A DNA stretch of 64,000 nt, taken from positions 16,268 to 80,267 of IMG/VR virus record IMGVR_UViG_3300017971_000261; one strand, written 5' to 3'. Position 1 is the first letter of the stretch; each line of letters starts with the position of its first letter. Source of the stretch: a virus. Below, piece after piece: positions 14,691 through 22,652 of this stretch. Both the position numbers and the translations under genes were made by a program. The notes beneath the pieces were generated by a model. The model ran no database searches. It was not told the DNA's origin and saw only the letters and a program-made list of their open reading frames with translations.

Positions 14691-14931
14691 GGTCAAAGCG
14701 AAGGGCAATGAAGCTGCTGAACACATGTGGCGGCGTTTCCAGAAGATCTGCGAGAAAGAGGGCCTGATGCGCGACATTAAGCGTCGCATGTACTACGAGT
14801 CACCCTCTGAGGAACGCCGAAGGAAGAGGCTTAAAGCCAAACGCCGAAGAATCAAAGAAACCCAAAGAAACAAACAGAAGACGAAAAGACGTAAACCTTC
14901 GCGTGGAAGGATCGCATTCCGGTCTAACTAA
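14683..14931 (+). CDS. rpsU: 30S ribosomal protein bS21
   Basis: MLKVKAKGNE...RRFQKICEKEGL..DIKRR.YYESPSEERRRK matches the bS21 consensus; basic C-terminal tail. Confidence 0.9.
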   Translation: MLKVKAKGNEAAEHMWRRFQKICEKEGLMRDIKRRMYYESPSEERRRKRLKAKRRRIKETQRNKQKTKRRKPSRGRIAFRSN

Positions 14932-15928
14932 ACCCATGCTCGGCTAGAAGTTTTGCATATTTTGCTACGCAGTGTCTTATGTGTAGGAATTTGTCAAAGT
15001 GTGCTTTGGTTGATTTGCGCAGGCGTCGCAGTACCGGACGTTTTCGGATTAGTCGCCGTATTTGTTTCTGCACATCCTCATAGGTCTTGAAATAGATTCC
15101 ATTCACTCCATTTTGGACGAGTTCATTTGTTCCGCCCTTGTCACGGCAGAGTATTGGGACACCAAGTGACAATGTCTCCAGCACTGCCATTGATGAGCCT
15201 TCCGAGATCATATTGTCGTAGAAATAGAGGTGGAGCGACGACAGAAGTGACATTTTCCAGTCCTGATCGTCTATAACGCCTAGGTATCTGACATTGTCCA
15301 TCTCGTTGTGATAAGGTTTGCCTATCATGTAGTGAACGTGCCCCTTTATACCGTTCAGATATTCGGTTGCCTTATCAGAGAACTTTCCTCCGCACAGACG
15401 ATGACAACGACCCGTTCTAAACTTATCCTGCTCCAAGACGGGACATCCGGGTTTTAGCCCAGATTCTGGCGGCTCCCAGTATTCCATACCATTAACGATG
15501 ATGACATGCTTTTTCTTACGTGGATATCTAGCAATGCCATCCAAAAATGCAGAAACAGAGACAAAGACATCAGCTTCCTGGAATCTACGTAGTTCTCCTG
15601 GACCCTGCACTGTGTGGTTGACAACGATATAGAATGGGTCAATATCTTCAAGACATGGAGCACCGAAAAGCCTATGCTGTATGACAACATCGTACTTTCG
15701 GGCAATCTTCTTCTTGAAATCCTTGTAGCGATGGTAGCCTGCCACGTTAAGACCACTAGTTTCGATGAGATTCTTATTGGTGGTCTCGTCATCACCACGT
15801 TTGTTCACAACAAGAAGATCGCCATCAATGTCATAATACTTCTTGAGGCCACGTATTATCTGACAAACAGATGTCGTCCCGCCATTCAAATTGGGGTGAG
15901 CGATGATGTGTGCAATTTTAGCAGGCAT
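14924..15928 (-). CDS. GT-B (family 4-like) glycosyltransferase
   Basis: N-terminal GG motif, FVSVS, IVNG, EGSSMAVLETLSLGVPIL (EX7E), GGTNELVQNGVNG. Confidence 0.85.
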   Translation of the reverse strand: MPAKIAHIIAHPNLNGGTTSVCQIIRGLKKYYDIDGDLLVVNKRGDDETTNKNLIETSGLNVAGYHRYKDFKKKIARKYDVVIQHRLFGAPCLEDIDPFYIVVNHTVQGPGELRRFQEADVFVSVSAFLDGIARYPRKKKHVIIVNGMEYWEPPESGLKPGCPVLEQDKFRTGRCHRLCGGKFSDKATEYLNGIKGHVHYMIGKPYHNEMDNVRYLGVIDDQDWKMSLLSSLHLYFYDNMISEGSSMAVLETLSLGVPILCRDKGGTNELVQNGVNGIYFKTYEDVQKQIRRLIRKRPVLRRLRKSTKAHFDKFLHIRHCVAKYAKLLAEHGFS

Positions 15929-15938
15929 AAGCCCCTAA

Positions 15939-17039
15939 TTATACACCGTTTTCTTCCATGAGCTTCTTGACATCCACAAGTCCATAACCGGTTTTCTTGT
16001 CTTTTCCGGCCGAAGAAAGATCGATAGCGGTCTTTCTGAGATGCTCACGTATTTCTTCTACGGTATCGACAGGTGTAGCTCCGCCGAGTTTTCTGTGTTT
16101 CGCGATCATGAGTGCTACAACTCCGGCCACCCACGGTGTTGCCATGCTCGTTCCGCTCATAACTCCATATCTGTTCTTTGGCAGGGTGGACAGGACTTTA
16201 ACTCCTGGTGCAACGAAATCTAGATTAGGCCCAGTTTGGCTAAAACTCGCGCGACTCATATCTTTGGATACTGCACCTATGGAAATCGTTTCCTTCAGTC
16301 TGGCTGGATAATCTAGCTTGCCTATGTTCCCCGCATTGCCAGCCGCACATATGACAGGGACATTCTTGCTATATGCACGCTGGACAGCGGCACGCATGGC
16401 CTTATTGTTGTCCGGGCCACCGAGTGACATGCTGATCACATCAGCCCCCTTGGCTAAAGCGTAATCAATACCCGTCGCAATGTCTACGTATCTTCCGCAA
16501 CCGTTGTTGTCTAAGACTTTGATTGTGATTATTTTCGCATCCGGAGCCACTCCGACTACGCCGATGCTATTGTTGTTTGCAGTTACGATACCTGTGCAAT
16601 GTGTACCATGACCATCGCCATCATAAATTTTTGTTCTTATCTTCTTGATCTTCTTATTTACCGCACTAATCCTGCGCTGGTTTAGTCTGATGGATTTTCT
16701 CATTCTTTTCTTAGCACCTTTGCTCTTTGTTCGTCTGATTCGCTTCTTAAGTGTAGAAATTGATGATTTGTATCTTGACCTAGTCTTCAGAAGGTTTTTG
16801 ATACTACTATCTCCGCTGAAATTGTGTTTTGCACCAAATGAATTTTTGAGGTCTTTGTGTTTTGTGTCGCAACCGGTATCCAATATGGCAACAGTTACGC
16901 CCTCTCCTTTGGTTGTAGCCCAAATCTCTGGGATGTTGAATTTCGATATATGGTATCCGAGCCTTTGGGCACTGCTAGTCGAAATATCGTGTTTCACTAG
17001 ATCCGGCGGTAGTTCACATTCTGGTCTTTTTGCTGGCAT
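15939..17039 (-). CDS. Subtilisin-like S8 serine protease with basic insertion
   Basis: VAILDTG, DGHGTHCTG, AAGN, GTSMATP triad; no signal peptide. Confidence 0.92.
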   Translation of the reverse strand: MPAKRPECELPPDLVKHDISTSSAQRLGYHISKFNIPEIWATTKGEGVTVAILDTGCDTKHKDLKNSFGAKHNFSGDSSIKNLLKTRSRYKSSISTLKKRIRRTKSKGAKKRMRKSIRLNQRRISAVNKKIKKIRTKIYDGDGHGTHCTGIVTANNNSIGVVGVAPDAKIITIKVLDNNGCGRYVDIATGIDYALAKGADVISMSLGGPDNNKAMRAAVQRAYSKNVPVICAAGNAGNIGKLDYPARLKETISIGAVSKDMSRASFSQTGPNLDFVAPGVKVLSTLPKNRYGVMSGTSMATPWVAGVVALMIAKHRKLGGATPVDTVEEIREHLRKTAIDLSSAGKDKKTGYGLVDVKKLMEENGV

Positions 17040-17593: not shown

Positions 17594-17956
17594 ATGGAAG
17601 TAAGTCGCTCCGACACACGATATGTTTGTGTGCTTCATTGCAACAGGGCCAAGAAGAATTTGGCCCACAGTCTAGCCAAAACTCCCTATCAATACGAAAT
17701 CGAGCAGATTCCTGATTGCCCAACTCAGTACAGGGAAATCTTCGTTCGTGCCACCCTCGCTCGGTTAGCAGGATCGTTTCGGAACGGTAAACCGTTTGAG
17801 GTCATTCTGGATCATATAATGTCTTTGGACAATGCTGTAATTGTCGTTTTTGGACATGAAGATCTTTTACCACTGATTCAGTCATGGGCAGAGCAAAATT
17901 CTTGTAAGTTTCGTTGCTGGAAAACTTGCCACAGCGTCGATCTTGTGGTATCCTAG
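17594..17956 (+). CDS. Hypothetical protein
   Basis: ATG downstream of the promoter; 120 aa. Confidence 0.6.
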   Translation: MEVSRSDTRYVCVLHCNRAKKNLAHSLAKTPYQYEIEQIPDCPTQYREIFVRATLARLAGSFRNGKPFEVILDHIMSLDNAVIVVFGHEDLLPLIQSWAEQNSCKFRCWKTCHSVDLVVS

Positions 17957-17976
17957 GGTGTGCGGGAGCGTGAGCT

Positions 17977-18144
17977 ATGTCACACTCGAAGGGGAACAAG
18001 CATGCTGGCAAGCGAAATTACGTCCACCAGGGTTGGGTAGGATCAAAATGGTGGAAACAGGCTCGGTATGCTCGTTGGGATGACCACAGACAGAAGGATA
18101 GTGGCCTTCCTTTCAGGCGAAAAGACAAAAAGAAGAAACGTTAG
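17977..18144 (+). CDS. Small basic protein (55 aa, absent from ORF track)
   Basis: GGAG RBS; MSHSKGNKHAGKRNY...RRKDKKKKR; the stop codon overlaps the first base of the tRNA. Confidence 0.55.
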   Translation: MSHSKGNKHAGKRNYVHQGWVGSKWWKQARYARWDDHRQKDSGLPFRRKDKKKKR

Positions 18145-18356
18145 GTCGGGTGGCGAAATTGGCAGACGCGCAGCGACAAGCATTGGCGACAACTGTACCA
18201 GGCGTTGCCGTGCTGTCGACTCTACAACACCTTGCCGCCATCGAGTGGCGTACGACGCCACTGGTACCGGCGAACAGCCATGGCGGATGCCGTAGGGTCT
18301 ACATTGAGGACGCTGTGTCCCATAGGGGCGTGCTGGTTCGAATCCAGCCCCGGCCT
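18144..18356 (+). tRNA. tRNA-Leu-like gene with 128-nt insertion in the anticodon loop (GAG if insert 18176-18303 is removed)
   Basis: Acceptor GGTCGGG/CCCGGCC, D-arm GCG..TGG..CGC, anticodon stem CAGCG/CGCTG, long variable arm, T-arm GCTGG-TTCGAAT-CCAGC; U73; no CCA. Confidence 0.85.
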
Positions 18357-18391
18357 TTACTTCGCCCATTTTTTGCCGACTGGAGACAGAC

Positions 18392-19474
18392 ATGATCACA
18401 TTCGAAGTTTCGGATGCACCGCAAGTGAGGGGTCCTGCAACGGGCATCAACCCCAAGCAGTTCATCGAGGAGGGGCTGCTCAATGGCCCCATCGAACAGT
18501 GTTGCGATTATCAGGCGACACTCAGGCATGTCCCTACATCGCATCCCTTGTTCGGTGCGGCCTATGCTGCGTTCTGTGAGCACAAACCGCTGGTTCTCTC
18601 GCCGGACATGATCTGGATCACGATCATGCAGGGGTTGGCGAACCATATCAACCTCGACCCGGAGAAGTACAGACACCAGTTCGTGGAGCACGAAGGCAAA
18701 GAAGAGATCAAGATTCGTCATGACGGTCTTGTCAAAGGCAGCCCGGAGAATCCGTGGCACGAAGTAATCGGCATGTTCTCCGCTCAGCTGAGACCACGGA
18801 TCTTGAACAATGTTCACGATTATGTGGTCTGTGACTTCAGCACAACCGATCTCGTCGAGCGTGTTTCCTCAATCATGGTCTTGATGGATGCCATGCAGGG
18901 ATACTTCGACTACAGGGTGATGACTATCTGTGGTATTCCGAAGGTTACATTGGAGGGGGAACCGTCTGACTGGCAGGCAATCGCTGAGAGAGTCCCGAAG
19001 CTGAATGATTACGGCCTCGATTGGTGGACGCAGCGACTCGGGCCGGTGTGCGACGAGTTTGTGAAGGCCTCGCTCGGCGATGTCGACGAGGAACACTGGA
19101 TGAACATCTTCCAGGAACAAAGCATGGGAAGCGGCGGTCCTAACTTGTTTGGGTGGCTGTTCTACTTCTTGCCTTACACGAAAGACCATCAAACCAACGC
19201 CCCGACAGTCGTGAACCGGATGTTGACACAGCCGGAACGCAGACTGAGAAAAGGAAGCCATCGTGCTGGGCCAGGAGCGTCACTTGACACTGACGACATC
19301 CCGATGTCCCTTTCTAAGGTTCCCTTCATATGGGAATATCACGGGAATGTGTCCAATTACGAGTTCCTGGCGGGCATCATCGGAGCTACTGAGTCTGAAG
19401 AGGATTGCTCAATCCGACCGAAAGTCGGTTGGGCCGTCCGTCCGAAGCCGGAGGAACAGGCAGAACAAGCGTGA
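18392..19474 (+). CDS. DUF4419 domain protein
   Basis: HKPLVLSPDMIW, FVEHEGKEE, DFSTT, MDAMQGYFDY, CGIPKVTLEG..DW, GW motifs. Confidence 0.85.
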   Translation: MITFEVSDAPQVRGPATGINPKQFIEEGLLNGPIEQCCDYQATLRHVPTSHPLFGAAYAAFCEHKPLVLSPDMIWITIMQGLANHINLDPEKYRHQFVEHEGKEEIKIRHDGLVKGSPENPWHEVIGMFSAQLRPRILNNVHDYVVCDFSTTDLVERVSSIMVLMDAMQGYFDYRVMTICGIPKVTLEGEPSDWQAIAERVPKLNDYGLDWWTQRLGPVCDEFVKASLGDVDEEHWMNIFQEQSMGSGGPNLFGWLFYFLPYTKDHQTNAPTVVNRMLTQPERRLRKGSHRAGPGASLDTDDIPMSLSKVPFIWEYHGNVSNYEFLAGIIGATESEEDCSIRPKVGWAVRPKPEEQAEQA

Positions 19475-19554
19475 CTGACAGGTTCACGACTCGCAAGTAT
19501 CTACTGAAGGTGCGGCACAGGTGATGACAGGCTCTGCGGCCAGGAAACTTAGGA

Positions 19555-19974
19555 ATGCCGGATTGGGATCGTGTACATGACGTCATCCAGTCTCAACTGA
19601 AGATCGTTGCCGACGCTATTGTAGAACAGGGTAGCTCAGTCGACATCGAAATTCGGTTTGAGTCCGGGAAAACGAGCAGCGACTACTGTCATCTGCTGAC
19701 ATCTATCAAATTGATGCCACAGAGCCAAGATTGTATCGATCCAATCTTGTTGACCGTGAGCTTCGTGCCTGCTGGTGATGGCATGGTACAAGTGACAGGA
19801 GATGCTTCCGGAGAGAATCTGGGTGACATGATTGCCAGCTATGGCAGCATGGGTGCTGTACCGGACTTGGATGTATGGCTGCTATTCGCTGGCTGTCAGG
19901 TTGTAGGATACTTGGGGTCGCACATCAATGACATAACCAACGCATGCAGGGACCCCTCACGCACGAGCCCGTGA
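19555..19974 (+). CDS. Hypothetical protein
   Basis: 139-aa co-oriented ORF. Confidence 0.6.
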   Translation: MPDWDRVHDVIQSQLKIVADAIVEQGSSVDIEIRFESGKTSSDYCHLLTSIKLMPQSQDCIDPILLTVSFVPAGDGMVQVTGDASGENLGDMIASYGSMGAVPDLDVWLLFAGCQVVGYLGSHINDITNACRDPSRTSP

Positions 19975-19987
19975 CGAAAGGAATCAT

Positions 19988-20335
19988 ATGCGGGTTGAAC
20001 ATTGGAGAAGGAAAGTCTGCGAAGGTTTCGTAGATTACATTCACGGCGGTGGTTACATCATCGACGAGTTTGTAATACCTGATCTTCGATTGGTCGTCAA
20101 CAAAGAGGCCTTTTTCATACAAACGCCTGAGCAGTACACCCGTAAGGAAGAGGCAGAGAACGCCGAAGAATGGCAACCCAGGTTCGTTACGGCCGTAGAA
20201 GTCGAAGACGAGCAGGTCACCAACAACCTGAGAAGGCTCGCCGCATTCGCAGAGATGAAAGAGGAAGCGAAAAATGCTGAAACTCAAGTACTTACAGAAT
20301 TGAGTACCCGTTTCGGTGTGAATCTGTTGGATTAG
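19988..20335 (+). CDS. Hypothetical protein
   Basis: AAGGA RBS; 115 aa; ends 2 nt before a tRNA. Confidence 0.7.
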   Translation: MRVEHWRRKVCEGFVDYIHGGGYIIDEFVIPDLRLVVNKEAFFIQTPEQYTRKEEAENAEEWQPRFVTAVEVEDEQVTNNLRRLAAFAEMKEEAKNAETQVLTELSTRFGVNLLD

Positions 20336-20337
20336 TA

Positions 20338-20421
20338 GTCCCGGTGGTGGAACTGGCAGACACGCGGGCCCGAGGAGCCCGTGCTCGAAAGAGCGTGAGG
20401 GTTCGAATCCCTCCCGGGACA
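20338..20421 (+). tRNA. tRNA-Leu (anticodon GAG; unusual C33)
   Basis: GTCCCGG/CCGGGAC acceptor, CGGGC-CCGAGGA-GCCCG anticodon arm, long variable arm, TTCGAAT loop, A73, no CCA. Confidence 0.92.
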
Positions 20422-20447
20422 TTCATGCCGCAGTTCAAACGAATCTC

Positions 20448-20476
20448 TTGACATGAGCAGGATCATGTGGTATACT
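20448..20476 (+). promoter_or_regulatory. sigma70-type promoter with extended -10
   Basis: TTGACA-N17-TATACT preceded by TGG. Confidence 0.8.
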
Positions 20477-20608
20477 AGAAGCACGGATGAAGGTTCGCGC
20501 TCTGAGGTAACGGTAGCGATATAATGAGATGACGAATAAGGCAGAGCTGTAAAAAGAAAGGTGCCTGCCTCTGCTGTTTCGAATGTTAGTTTAACGGAGG
20601 AAACTAAC

Positions 20609-21391
20609 ATGACAGCAAGAAGCCGCAGACGATACAGCGAAAGCCAATTTCGTGAAGCCGTAAGAGAGTCGCGTTCAGTTGCAGAAGCATTGAGGAAACT
20701 TGGTCTTTCACCCCATGGCGGTGGAGGATATGAGTCATTCTACTCATATTGCGAGGAGACCGGAACGGATTGGAGCCATTTCAAGGGCCAGGGTTGGTTG
20801 CGTGGCGGTTCATGTTCGTGGTCTCAGTTCAAAGCAAGACCTCTTGAGGAGATATTAGTAGAAGATTCTACTTATCTTTCTACTGCCAATCTGAAGCGCA
20901 GGCTTATCAAAGAGGGCGTGTTTGAGGACAAATGTTACGAATGTGGTCTTAAGGAATGGCGTGGGAGCAAATTGCCGACTGAGCTGCATCATAAGAACGG
21001 CAACAGACGTGACAATAGGCTGTCCAACCTAATAATACTTTGTCGGAATTGTCACGGTCTAACACAGAATTTTCGCCAGCGTAACGGGAGATCGTCCAAT
21101 GGCGTCCTGGGACAACGGAAACACAAACCAGGGCGAAACAGAACAGGACGAAAACGAGAGCTTAATGACAGAACGTGCCCTACTTGTCATAAAGAATTCA
21201 GGCCTCGCCGTAGGGAACAGAGATTCTGTTCGTATACCTGCAGTTCTCTGTCGAGGCGAAAACGAGATCGGCCGAATAAGGCCGTCCTTTTGCGGATGGT
21301 TAACGAATCTTCTGTCTGTGCTGTCGCCAGGGACATGGGAGTATCGGACAACACTATACGCAAATGGATCAAATTCGGAGAAGACTGTTAA
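20609..21391 (+). CDS. HNH endonuclease with zinc finger and HTH (homing-endonuclease-like, between tRNAs)
   Basis: CYECG...ELHHKNGNRRDNRLSNLIILCRNCH; CPTC..FCSYTC; C-terminal HTH VARDMGVSDNTIRKW; GGAGG RBS. Confidence 0.9.
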   Translation: MTARSRRRYSESQFREAVRESRSVAEALRKLGLSPHGGGGYESFYSYCEETGTDWSHFKGQGWLRGGSCSWSQFKARPLEEILVEDSTYLSTANLKRRLIKEGVFEDKCYECGLKEWRGSKLPTELHHKNGNRRDNRLSNLIILCRNCHGLTQNFRQRNGRSSNGVLGQRKHKPGRNRTGRKRELNDRTCPTCHKEFRPRRREQRFCSYTCSSLSRRKRDRPNKAVLLRMVNESSVCAVARDMGVSDNTIRKWIKFGEDC

Positions 21392-21395
21392 ATTA

Positions 21396-21480
21396 GGCCC
21401 AGTGGCGAAACGGAAAACGCGGCACGCTCAAACCGTGTTGTCCCATCGTGGACTTGAAGGTTCGAATCCTTCCTGGGCTA
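21396..21480 (+). tRNA. tRNA-Leu (anticodon CAA)
   Basis: GGCCCAG/CTGGGCT acceptor, GCACG-CTCAAAC-CGTGT arm, long variable arm, GAAGG-TTCGAAT-CCTTC, A73, no CCA. Confidence 0.92.
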
Positions 21481-21501
21481 TTAAATTCAACAGGTGTAGT
21501 T

Positions 21502-22269
21502 ATGTCGGCCACCAAGGAAATCTACTCGAACTGCAGACTACTGTCTCCGGACGGTGTTCTCATGTGCTACTGCGGCCACGACAAGGTCAAGTGGTACTTG
21601 GACAGAGGCGTTGCAGAGGTCGTAGAGATACGGCCGCATCTAACGGTGCGTCTACTGTTCGAGCCTGAGGGTCTTGGCAAGGCCGGAGACCCCTTCTACC
21701 TGCAGGTGCGTGAGAACAAGTGCTGTGTGTGTGGTAGCAAGGAAGACCTAACGAAGCACCACGTTATTCCTTTGTGCTACAGAAGGCACCTGAATGGATC
21801 GCGAAACACGCACCATGATGTTCTGCCGATCTGTAGAACCTGCCACAACAAGTATGAGCGTGACTACGCGATCGAAGTAAGACAAAACTTCGCGAAGCGT
21901 TACAAGGCACCGCTGGGTGGTCTCGTTGGTGACGTTGATGCTGCAGTATTTGCACGCGTCAGCCGTTGTGCAAGTGCTCTGGTTCGATACGGCGACCGTA
22001 TTCCGGCAAACCGTCGTAACGAACTTCGGGATGTGATCGATCAGTTTCTCGGTCGTCTCGCTACGTGGGACGAAATCTTGGAGCTGTCGGAGAACTACCG
22101 AGAGCGTGATGACTATCTCAGCCATCCGGAGATCGTCGCACAGAAGATCACGGACTTGGATACGTTCTACAAGATCTGGAGACGACACTTCGTTCACACG
22201 ATGCGACCGCGCTTCTTGCCGGAGCACTGGTCCATCAATCGAAGTATCGTAGAGGAAACCATGAGCTGA
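21502..22269 (+). CDS. HNH-like protein resembling the C-terminal domain of eukaryotic EXD2
   Basis: YSNCRLLSPDG, WYLDRG, FEPEG, ENKCCVCG, HHVIPLCYRRH, HDVLPICRTCH, WRRHFVHTMRPRFLPEHWS. Confidence 0.8.
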   Translation: MSATKEIYSNCRLLSPDGVLMCYCGHDKVKWYLDRGVAEVVEIRPHLTVRLLFEPEGLGKAGDPFYLQVRENKCCVCGSKEDLTKHHVIPLCYRRHLNGSRNTHHDVLPICRTCHNKYERDYAIEVRQNFAKRYKAPLGGLVGDVDAAVFARVSRCASALVRYGDRIPANRRNELRDVIDQFLGRLATWDEILELSENYRERDDYLSHPEIVAQKITDLDTFYKIWRRHFVHTMRPRFLPEHWSINRSIVEETMS

Positions 22270-22568
22270 TGACGCATAGTGCTCACGATCCAATCAAGAT
22301 CGTCAAACTGCTAAGCCTGGGAGGGCCGTGCCCCACTCAGTGGGAAGCATGGGACGATCAGGGTCGTGAGTACTACATGCGTTATCGGTGGGGTCATCTG
22401 ACTTTCTGTCGTTGGGACGTGAGCCCTCCTGAATACTATCTGTCCGAGCAGATCGGAGACCAATATGATGGCATGTTAGACGATGACACCATGAAACAAC
22501 GTCTGATTGGCATCGTGGATTGGAGTGAATGCAAACAGGTCGACAACCGACCTGTTGATCCCTATTGA
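22269..22568 (+). CDS. Hypothetical phage protein
   Basis: TGATG-coupled start; CPTQWE..YMRYRWG motif. Confidence 0.75.
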   Translation: MTHSAHDPIKIVKLLSLGGPCPTQWEAWDDQGREYYMRYRWGHLTFCRWDVSPPEYYLSEQIGDQYDGMLDDDTMKQRLIGIVDWSECKQVDNRPVDPY

Positions 22569-22652
22569 GCCTCTGTGGCGGAACAGGCAGACGCGCGGAT
22601 TTTAAGAGTCCGTGTCCTTAGTGGCGTACAGGTTCGAGTCCTGTCAGGGGCA
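22569..22652 (+). tRNA. tRNA-Leu (anticodon TAA)
   Basis: GCCTCTG/CAGGGGC acceptor, CGGAT-TTTAAGA-GTCCG arm, long variable arm, ACAGG-TTCGAGT-CCTGT, A73, no CCA. Confidence 0.92.

What the first reader, a model, noticed from the sequence alone, without database searches (positions are those of the whole stretch)
18144..18356. tRNA-Leu scaffold carrying a 128-nt pseudoknotted RNA in the anticodon loop
Seen: every arm of a class II tRNA is intact, but 128 nt (18176-18303) sit between the 5' anticodon-stem strand CAGCG and TTGAGGA-CGCTG. The insert is almost fully paired. Arm 1 is AGCA-T-TGGCGAC (18179-18190) with GTTGCCG-TGCT (18204-18214) closing a 13-nt loop. Arm 2 is GACTCTAC/GTAGGGTC (18218-25/18292-99) and CCGCCAT/ATGGCGG (18235-41/18280-86), enclosing the hairpins AGTGGCGT/ACGCCACT and GGC/GCC. 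The arm-1 loop GTACC(AG) is complementary to (CT)GGTAC in the arm-2 junction, forming a pseudoknot. Excision could leave TT-GAG-GA or AC-AAG-GA, both Leu anticodons. The discriminator is U73, and A18143 could extend the acceptor stem to 8 bp. Established: LeuRS prefers A73, and bacterial tRNA group I introns are usually around 200 nt or more; I cannot see group I/II cores or a clear bulge-helix-bulge. An uninterrupted tRNA-Leu(GAG) lies 2 kb away, so this copy is redundant as an adaptor. Inference: a new small intron/ribozyme class, or a tRNA-scaffolded ncRNA (decoy for anticodon nucleases or synthetases, or a ribosome-acting RNA).
Basis: partly seen in the sequence, partly recalled or inferred. 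Interest (0 to 1): 0.9.

Follow-up and report, generated by a model that had tools for sequence, protein, structure and literature searches.

The report
Orphan structured insert splitting phage tRNA-Leu
A leucine tRNA gene of an uncultured marine/sediment phage is split at the front of its anticodon loop by a tightly folded 128-base RNA that matches no known intron or ribozyme; it is real, but no relative was found, so how or whether it is removed is open.

Summary
ARAGORN in intron mode calls tRNA-Leu(GAG) at 18143-18357 with a 128-nt insert (18176-18303) between positions 31 and 32. Contigs from a second study carry the same sequence, so it is not an assembly chimera.

Removing the insert gives an anticodon arm identical to that of a real bacterial tRNA-Leu(GAG). 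It is not group I (no core match, no U-1/G-omega option, too small), not group II, not bulge-helix-bulge, not any Rfam ribozyme, and not like the phage's own TnpB guide-RNA region.

They found no homolog, no intron-less allele and no close relative of the phage. So there is no covariation evidence, and no RNA data exist.

Best reading (0.4): an intron-like element cut out and rejoined by an undescribed route. Rivals:
- a retained domain in a non-decoding tRNA look-alike (0.3), favoured by the U73 discriminator;
- a recent selfish insertion in a now-dead gene (0.2).

This scan has noted comparable unclassified inserts in other phage tRNAs. In print, only the 'enigmatic' introns of Lak megaphages are close.

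The parts
17926..17954 (+). Promoter-like site (TTGCCA-17-TATCCT, TG extended) 190 nt upstream of the tRNA
   Evidence: Consensus scan. This is a match to a consensus only. The leader 17955-18143 is not significantly structured (z -1.5).
18144..18175 (+). 5' exon: acceptor 5' strand, Leu-type D arm, 5' strand of the anticodon stem (CAGCG)
   Evidence: ARAGORN -i; sequence
18176..18303 (+). 128-nt structured insert between tRNA positions 31 and 32. A 1-nt shift (18177-18304) is equally possible and would give loop ATGAGGA.
   Evidence: It is 60% G+C in a 48% G+C genome and occurs once in the 80-kb record.
18179..18214 (+). Arm 1: 4 bp, a 1-nt bulge and 7 bp, closing a 13-nt loop
   Evidence: Two G.U pairs fit RNA on the + strand only.
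18195..18201 (+). Pseudoknot strand 1 (GTACCAG), in the arm 1 loop
   Evidence: 7 bp with 18261-18267, -9.1 kcal/mol; 3.4% of loop shuffles do as well
18218..18299 (+). Arm 2: 8-bp outer helix, a 9x5 internal loop, and a 7-bp inner helix that opens into a three-way junction with hairpin A (18244-18262) and hairpin B (18269-18279)
18261..18267 (+). Pseudoknot strand 2 (CTGGTAC), spanning the base of hairpin A and the junction between hairpins A and B
18304..18356 (+). 3' exon: complete 7-nt anticodon loop TTGAGGA, 3' stem strand CGCTG, variable arm, T arm, acceptor 3' strand, discriminator U73. No CCA is encoded.
   Evidence: The same joined 17-nt anticodon arm occurs in a Ramlibacter tRNA-Leu(GAG) and in an unrelated contig of run X4.
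20338..20421 (+). Uninterrupted tRNA-Leu(GAG), A73
21396..21480 (+). tRNA-Leu(CAA), A73
22569..22652 (+). tRNA-Leu(TAA), A73

Best explanation
The 128 nt are an intron-like RNA element sitting in a working-type tRNA-Leu(GAG) gene of a phage rich in mobile elements. The gene is probably transcribed with its neighbours.

Shown or predicted from the sequence: the tRNA body folds normally. The insert forms a three-way junction with the anticodon stem (anticodon stem, arm 1, arm 2). A distal pseudoknot ties the loop of arm 1 to the inner junction of arm 2, so the two arms would lie side by side. Both predicted cut sites lie at this junction: G18175|A18176 at the foot of arm 1, and A18303|U18304 four bases past the foot of arm 2. 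The seven mature loop bases are left single-stranded.

Inferred: the folded insert presents these two sites for cleavage, either by its own chemistry or by a host or phage nuclease that reads the shape. The exon ends, held together by the anticodon stem, are then sealed by reversal of the cleavage or by a host ligase of the RtcB kind. The product would be an 85-nt tRNA with the canonical loop UUGAGGA.

The route is not group I, group II or bulge-helix-bulge splicing. Only the architecture and the exactness of the restored anticodon arm are shown. Cutting, joining and any catalysis are inference.
For: 1. Deleting exactly 128 nt restores a 5-bp stem plus a 7-nt loop with U33, anticodon GAG and G37. 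This 17-nt arm is identical to that of a genuine bacterial tRNA-Leu(GAG) with A73 and CCA (L153) and to an unrelated metagenomic tRNA (X4 loose end). A free linker would not be expected to keep this.
2. All other tRNA arms and the long variable arm are intact.
3. The insert has 37 standard pairs with no mismatch, and 3 G.U pairs that fit only the sense strand. Its z-score is -3.8, and it is 60% G+C in a 48% G+C genome. This is selection-like quality for an RNA fold.
4. The anticodon loop is the classical home of bacterial tRNA introns (Williams 2020).
5. The genome carries many selfish elements: two HNH genes between the tRNAs, and a LAGLIDADG gene and TnpB upstream.
6. CUU plus CUC make up 43% of the phage's leucine codons, so a second GAG decoder has a plausible use.
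7. The sequence is identical in assemblies from two studies.
Against: - No homolog, so no covariation and no proof that either the fold or the exons are under selection.
- No known splice signals, and no ribozyme family matches.
- The discriminator is U73. The other three phage tRNA-Leu genes and the Ramlibacter gene have A73. From established knowledge of LeuRS identity, A73 is a major determinant, so the spliced product may be a poor leucine acceptor.
- An intact tRNA-Leu(GAG) lies 2 kb away.
Confidence: 0.4

Rival explanations
1. The insert is never removed. The gene makes a tRNA-shaped RNA of about 213 nt. It is processed at its ends like a tRNA and so is stable, and it displays a folded 128-nt domain where the anticodon loop should be. 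It would work as a decoy or scaffold, for example for a tRNA-targeting nuclease, a synthetase or a modification enzyme, and not as an adaptor.
For: - U73 occurs in this copy only; the three sister tRNAs have A73.
- An intact tRNA-Leu(GAG) lies nearby.
- There are no splice signals of any known kind.
- My IMG/VR scan for a Leu-type D arm and T loop held 150-180 nt apart found about 15 distinct phage genes with good Leu-type acceptor, D and T arms and central domains of 106-147 nt. One family of three (L110, L133, L137) shows compensatory changes in the acceptor stem and in the helix that closes the domain. So phages do make tRNA-Leu-shaped RNAs with cargo.
- From established knowledge, LeuRS does not read the anticodon.
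Against: - A retained domain gives no reason to keep an exact canonical 7-nt loop, a 5-bp anticodon stem identical to a real tRNA-Leu(GAG), and an intact variable arm.
- None of the cargo-bearing RNAs resembles this insert in sequence or by covariance model. They mostly lack a clean anticodon arm, so this is an analogy, not membership.
Confidence: 0.3
2. This is a recent one-off insertion of a selfish or stray structured element into one of two redundant tRNA-Leu(GAG) genes. The gene is now dead or dying, U73 is early decay, and the intact look of the exons only reflects how young the event is.
For: - It is a singleton in every collection searched.
- The gene is redundant.
- The genome carries many mobile elements.
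- U73.
Against: - No second copy of the element exists in the 80-kb record or anywhere else, so no source is visible.
- It has no terminal inverted repeats and no target duplication.
- It does not resemble the 3' guide-RNA region of the resident TnpB.
- The fold is mismatch-free, with G.U pairs that fit the transcribed strand only. A decaying or DNA-level element need not show this.
- The sequence is identical in samples from 2018 and 2021.
Confidence: 0.2
3. It is a degenerate or miniaturised member of a known class (group I, group II, archaeal bulge-helix-bulge, or a pair of known self-cleaving ribozymes) that the models failed to recognise.
For: Anticodon-loop position. A pseudoknot is present.
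Against: - No Rfam hit even at E<=10 over 401 nt.
- None of the eight loop registers gives U(-1) with G(omega), which 98.5% of tRNA group I introns show.
- 128 nt is well below the roughly 200 nt that I recall for the smallest natural group I introns (my own knowledge).
- There is no GUGYG start.
- The 4-nt strands that would have to form the central bulge-helix-bulge helix (GCAG with TCTA, or CAGC with CTAC) do not pair.
Confidence: 0.04

Closest known systems
[quoted passage not shown]
   Same: A structured, ORF-less insert in the anticodon loop of a bacterial-type tRNA gene. A pseudoknot is present. It occurs in a genome with free-standing homing endonucleases.
   Different: No match to the catalytic core model. 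No U(-1)/G(omega) in any register. 128 nt. The pseudoknot topology (a hairpin loop paired to the junction of another arm) is not P3-P7. The insert sits before the first loop base, following a G.
'Enigmatic' introns of Lak megaphage tRNAs (Devoto et al. 2019, PMC6784885)
   Same: Inserts in phage tRNA genes that fit no Rfam family and have no known splicing route.
   Different: Those are in 540-kb, 26% G+C gut phages. They recur identically across cohorts, and one looks like a nested tRNA. This one is in a marine/sediment phage (80-kb partial record, 58% complete by CheckV), is G+C-rich, has a three-way junction plus pseudoknot, and has no relative. I did not compare sequences.
Archaeal and eukaryal protein-spliced tRNA introns, including non-canonical positions (bulge-helix-bulge, EndA plus RtcB)
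   Same: The insert would have to be cut at two sites and the exons resealed inside the anticodon arm. Introns at non-canonical positions are known in Archaea (my own knowledge).
   Different: No bulge-helix-bulge can be drawn at either register. The tRNA is bacterial in type. No EndA or RtcB was found in the 58% of the phage genome that is held.
Phage tRNA-Leu-shaped RNAs with a large central domain (loci found here; also noted earlier in this scan), and bacterial YrlA tRNA-like Y RNAs and engineered tRNA scaffolds (my own knowledge)
   Same: A Leu-type acceptor, D and T frame carrying a folded domain of 100-150 nt. A tRNA frame can stabilise a passenger RNA.
   Different: Those lack a clean anticodon arm, and in the one family aligned the domain is closed by a covarying helix of its own just before the T arm. 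Here the anticodon stem, loop and variable arm are all intact, and deleting the insert gives a perfect tRNA.
Hammerhead-type architecture (a three-way junction whose core is activated by a distal contact between two arms)
   Same: Works-like only. Both predicted cut sites lie at a three-way junction, and a distal tertiary pairing ties the two non-tRNA arms together.
   Different: None of the hammerhead core sequences (CUGANGA, GAAA) is present, and Rfam gives no hit. Cleavage is not shown.

Membership tests
Class II tRNA-Leu | Cloverleaf with 7-bp acceptor, 3-bp D stem with a Leu-type D loop, 5-bp anticodon stem, 7-nt loop with U33 and a Leu anticodon, long variable arm, TPsiC loop | tested here: met
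   ARAGORN -i after removal of 128 nt. The anticodon arm is identical to that of a Ramlibacter tRNA-Leu(GAG).
Class II tRNA-Leu | Discriminator A73 (LeuRS identity element) | tested here: not met
   T at 18356. The three sister genes and the Ramlibacter gene have A.
Group I intron | Match to the catalytic core (Rfam RF00028 Intron_gpI) | tested here: not met
   No hit at the gathering score or at E<=10 on 401 nt
Group I intron | U (rarely C) before the 5' splice site and G as the last intron base, in one of the eight anticodon-loop registers | tested here: not met
   The -1 bases are G,A,C,A,A,G,C,A and the omega bases are A,T,T,G,A,G,G,A. There is no U/G pair. The only C/G register gives loop ACAAGCA, with C33 and C37. 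The rule is from Williams 2020.
Group II intron | 5' GUGYG, domain V, 3' AY | tested here: not met
   The insert starts ACAAG and ends CTACA. No Rfam group II hit.
Bulge-helix-bulge (archaeal-type) intron | Two 3-nt bulges holding the cut sites, separated by a 4-bp helix | tested here: not met
   By hand: the strands required are GCAG with TCTA, or CAGC with CTAC in the shifted register. Neither pairs.
Bulge-helix-bulge (archaeal-type) intron | Splicing endonuclease (PF01974) and RtcB (PF01139) available | tested here: inconclusive
   Neither is in the 80-kb record, but the record is 58% complete and the host is unknown
Known small self-cleaving ribozymes (hammerhead, twister, twister-sister, pistol, hatchet, HDV-like, hairpin) | Match to the family's covariance model | tested here: not met
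   the only hits at E<=10 are tRNA-Sec (16 bits, on the 3' exon) and Moco-II (14 bits, minus strand)
IS200/IS605-type non-autonomous element or TnpB guide (omega) RNA | Likeness to the guide-RNA region of a resident TnpB, several copies, or subterminal hairpins set back from the ends | tested here: not met
   TnpB is present, but its 3' region is unlike the insert (model R1 scores 5.4 bits or less). The insert is single-copy. Its hairpins start 3-4 nt from the ends.
tmRNA | tRNA-Ala-like domain with G3.U70, a tag reading frame, no anticodon arm | tested here: not met
   ARAGORN -m finds none. The pair is U3.G70, and the anticodon arm is intact.
Unclassified ('enigmatic') phage tRNA introns | An insert in a phage tRNA gene, matching no intron family, whose removal restores a tRNA | tested here: met
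   This is a descriptive group and not a homologous family (Devoto 2019).
Unclassified ('enigmatic') phage tRNA introns | Actual removal of the insert from the RNA | not testable with these tools
   No RNA run is listed for this sequence

The most novel reading that the evidence does not exclude
The insert is the first seen member of a new class of small RNA-catalysed or RNA-guided tRNA introns in viruses of bacteria. It would be a 128-nt three-way-junction ribozyme, clamped by a pseudoknot, that cuts at both edges of the junction it forms with the anticodon stem. The exons would then be rejoined by reversal of the cleavage or by a host RtcB-type ligase. That would give bacteria's widespread RtcB a natural splicing substrate and let the phage time, or protect, the maturation of a tRNA.
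Probability: 0.12. Interest if true: 0.9.

Novelty: new variant of a known kind. Interest (0 to 1): 0.55.

Why it matters
Bacteria and their viruses are thought to remove tRNA introns only by group I self-splicing. A clean tRNA gene split by a small, well-folded RNA that is not group I points to one of two things, and both can be tested at the bench with a single 300-nt transcript:
- another way of cutting and rejoining tRNA exists in this world;
- phages build tRNA-framed RNAs for other purposes.

Leucine tRNAs are the only tRNAs in the part of this phage genome that is held, so the element may also bear on conflicts over tRNA between phage and host.

The weakness is that this is one sequence from one phage lineage, with no relatives and no RNA data.

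Tried and rejected
Homolog searches, all negative:
- Phage GenBank BLAST with the 6-kb region, the insert and the whole gene. Only generic tRNA-Leu D-arm matches came back, and no two-piece hit.
- IMG/VR scans:
  - a 22-mer of the insert;
  - exons with a 110-140 nt gap (96 hits, none a tRNA by ARAGORN);
  - the joined anticodon arm (one chance hit, not a tRNA);
  - a 20-mer of the neighbouring tRNA-Leu(CAA) (one chance hit);
  - the pseudoknot pattern (15 hits, all in unrelated sequence).
- JGI metagenome contigs: two exon-plus-gap patterns, 0 hits.
- 185,579 species genomes: D arm plus gap plus loop plus T loop, 0 hits.
- Neighbour-gene routes:
  - The DUF4419 protein has no phage relatives. 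Its best homologs, at about 45% identity, are bacterial, and the named ones are Planctomycetota.
  - GyrB relatives are at 28-41% identity. They have no tRNA nearby and no hit to covariance model R1 in their whole records.
- Model R1 (a single sequence with the nested structure) found only itself.

RNA evidence: no RNA holder is listed for this stretch. The laid runs were DNA contigs only.

Splicing and repair enzymes: RtcB, Rnl2-type ligase and splicing endonuclease were not found in the 58%-complete record. The T4 Rnl1 family search rang nowhere, not even in the controls, so it says nothing.

The basic 55-aa ORF that ends at the tRNA's first base (17977-18144) has no PHROG family and no homolog. 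It may not be a gene.

Considered and rejected: TnpB guide RNA or IS605-type element, bulge-helix-bulge, tmRNA, a nested tRNA inside the insert (ARAGORN calls none), and a phage attachment site (no duplicated tRNA half).

The other two contigs that carry the identical DUF4419 protein could therefore not be compared.

Full report
WHAT IS THERE. The window is bases 16268-80267 of an 80,267-bp IMG/VR virus record that CheckV rates 58% complete. Default ARAGORN finds three tRNA-Leu genes, with anticodons GAG, CAA and TAA. With introns allowed it adds a fourth, tRNA-Leu(GAG) at 18143-18357, with a 128-nt intron between the 5' strand of the anticodon stem and the loop ('cagcg-Intron-ttgag', and for the whole record). 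Read directly, the exons give:
- a 7-bp acceptor stem (with U3.G70);
- a 3-bp D stem with the D loop typical of bacterial tRNA-Leu;
- anticodon stem CAGCG/CGCTG;
- loop TTGAGGA (U33, GAG, G37);
- a 5-bp variable arm and a standard T arm.

The discriminator is U. A18143 could pair with it. No CCA is encoded in any of the four genes.

THE INSERT. There are 37 standard pairs, three of them G.U, and no mismatch. The G.U pairs would be A.C on the other strand, so the fold belongs to the transcribed strand of the tRNA.
- The minimum free energy is -57.1 kcal/mol, against -43.3 +/- 3.6 for dinucleotide shuffles (z -3.8).
- The insert is 60% G+C in a 48% G+C genome.
- In the whole precursor the anticodon stem, arm 1 and arm 2 form a three-way junction, and the seven loop bases stay unpaired.
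- The loop of arm 1 can pair over 7 bp (-9.1 kcal/mol) with the strand between the two inner hairpins of arm 2. Only 3.4% of loop shuffles do as well, so the pseudoknot is plausible but not proven. Two of its pairs compete with hairpin A.

IS IT REAL DNA? Logan contigs from two different studies (sediment 2018, seawater 2021) cover 17600-18317 with no difference. The JGI contig spans the whole gene. One of the two runs may be the source sample, so I count this as one independent confirmation.

WHERE WOULD IT BE CUT? Only two registers give a 7-nt loop: 18175|18176 with 18303|18304 (loop UUGAGGA), or one base to the right (AUGAGGA). The first gives a 17-nt anticodon arm identical to that of a Ramlibacter tRNA-Leu(GAG), which has A73 and CCA. 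A contig of an unrelated organism in run X4 carries the same joined arm.

WHAT IT IS NOT.
- Rfam has no intron, ribozyme or riboswitch hit, at the gathering score or at E<=10.
- Group I: there is no core match. None of the eight registers has U(-1) with G(omega), a rule met by 98.5% of 5,292 tRNA group I introns. And 128 nt is too small.
- Group II: the ends are wrong.
- Bulge-helix-bulge: the strands that would have to form the 4-bp central helix do not pair in either register.
- tmRNA: none called.
- TnpB guide RNA: the record does carry a TnpB, but its 3' region has nothing in common with the insert. The insert is single-copy and has no terminal repeats.

RELATIVES. I added a covariance model of the insert, three BLAST searches of GenBank phages, and two neighbour-gene routes. 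Nothing resembles the insert. No intron-less allele of this tRNA exists in the collections, and the phage has no close relative (GyrB at most 41% identical). Details are under Tried and rejected. There is therefore no covariation evidence for or against the fold, and no way to tell whether the exons are under selection.

CONTEXT.
- All four tRNA genes in the record are leucine acceptors. Each starts within a few bases of an upstream stop codon, and two HNH endonuclease genes lie between them.
- A LAGLIDADG gene and a TnpB lie upstream.
- CUU plus CUC, the codons read by anticodon GAG, are 43% of the leucine codons in 44 long ORFs. A second GAG gene is therefore not obviously superfluous.
- The downstream DUF4419 gene has its nearest homologs (about 45% identity) in bacteria, and the named ones are Planctomycetota. 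This is a weak hint about the host.
- No RtcB, Rnl2-type ligase or splicing endonuclease is encoded in the part of the genome held.

A WIDER PATTERN. A scan of IMG/VR for a Leu-type D arm and a T loop held 150-180 nt apart returned 49 loci. About half are tandem tRNAs. About 15 distinct genes have pairing acceptor stems, Leu-type D and T arms, mostly A73, and a central domain of 106-147 nt. Three of them form a family, with compensatory changes in the acceptor stem and in a helix that closes the domain just before the T arm. None is like the present insert. ARAGORN gives them arbitrary anticodons, so they probably do not decode. They show that phages build on the tRNA-Leu frame, but this gene differs: its anticodon arm and variable arm are intact. 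Earlier notes of this scan list many unclassified inserts in phage tRNAs. I could not test whether any is related. In print I found only the 'enigmatic' introns of Lak megaphages and nothing later.

READING. Three readings remain.
- (a) An intron-like element that is cut out, 0.4. Best supported by the exact restoration of a genuine anticodon arm and the quality of the fold. I propose that the junction formed with the anticodon stem presents both cut sites, that the distal pseudoknot fixes the geometry, and that the ends are rejoined by reversal or by a host ligase. All of this is inference.
- (b) A retained domain in a non-decoding tRNA look-alike, 0.3. Best supported by U73 and by the cargo-bearing Leu-type RNAs of other phages.
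- (c) A recent selfish insertion in a dead gene, 0.2. Best supported by its being a singleton.

A hidden member of a known class or an artefact takes the rest.

VERDICT. The element is real, well folded and unclassifiable with present libraries. It is a cheap and well-defined bench target.

Noticed in passing
L104, L105, L106, L107, L110 (same as L111, L112), L113, L125, L130, L133, L137, L141, L142, L143, L149, L152 (IMG/VR loci): About 15 distinct phage genes have a pairing acceptor stem, Leu-type D arm and T arm, mostly A73, and a central domain of 106-147 nt in place of a clean anticodon and variable region. ARAGORN assigns them arbitrary anticodons. None resembles the insert studied here.
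   Followed up: partly
L110:6255-6461:+, L133:9505-9731:-, L137:4076-4293:-: These three tRNA-Leu-shaped RNAs form a family. The acceptor stem has 5 pairs changed on both sides. A 6-bp helix (GAGTGG/CCACTC versus GATAGG/CCTATC) closes a domain of about 135 nt just before the T arm. L133 and L137 encode CCA.
   Followed up: partly
window 18144-22652: The only tRNA genes in the 80-kb record are four leucine acceptors (GAG interrupted, GAG, CAA, TAA). None encodes CCA. Each starts 0-4 nt after an upstream stop codon, and two HNH endonuclease genes (20561-21391, 21448-22269) lie between them. CUU plus CUC are 43% and UUG plus UUA 23% of the leucine codons.
   Followed up: partly
G000:C1:8734-12751 (upstream of the window; L007:735-4752): A TnpB (OrfB_IS605 plus Cas12f-like TNB domain, 393 aa), a LAGLIDADG endonuclease and a MerR-type HTH protein lie on one strand. 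The 3' end region of tnpB folds well (z -3.0) and is probably its guide RNA.
   Followed up: partly
window 18392-19474: A DUF4419 protein is encoded directly after the interrupted tRNA. Its nearest homologs (about 45% identity) are bacterial, the named ones Planctomycetota (Aeoliella, Planctomycetaceae), and it matches no PHROG family. It looks like a host-derived gene and gives a weak hint about the host.
   Followed up: partly
window 17977-18144: A 55-aa, very basic, Trp-rich ORF has its stop codon overlapping the first base of the tRNA. It has no homolog and no family, and may be only a leader. A promoter-like site lies at 17926-17954.
   Followed up: partly
window 14924-17039: A group 1 glycosyltransferase and a subtilase (Peptidase_S8, E 9e-62) are encoded on the minus strand just upstream of the tRNA region.
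   Followed up: no
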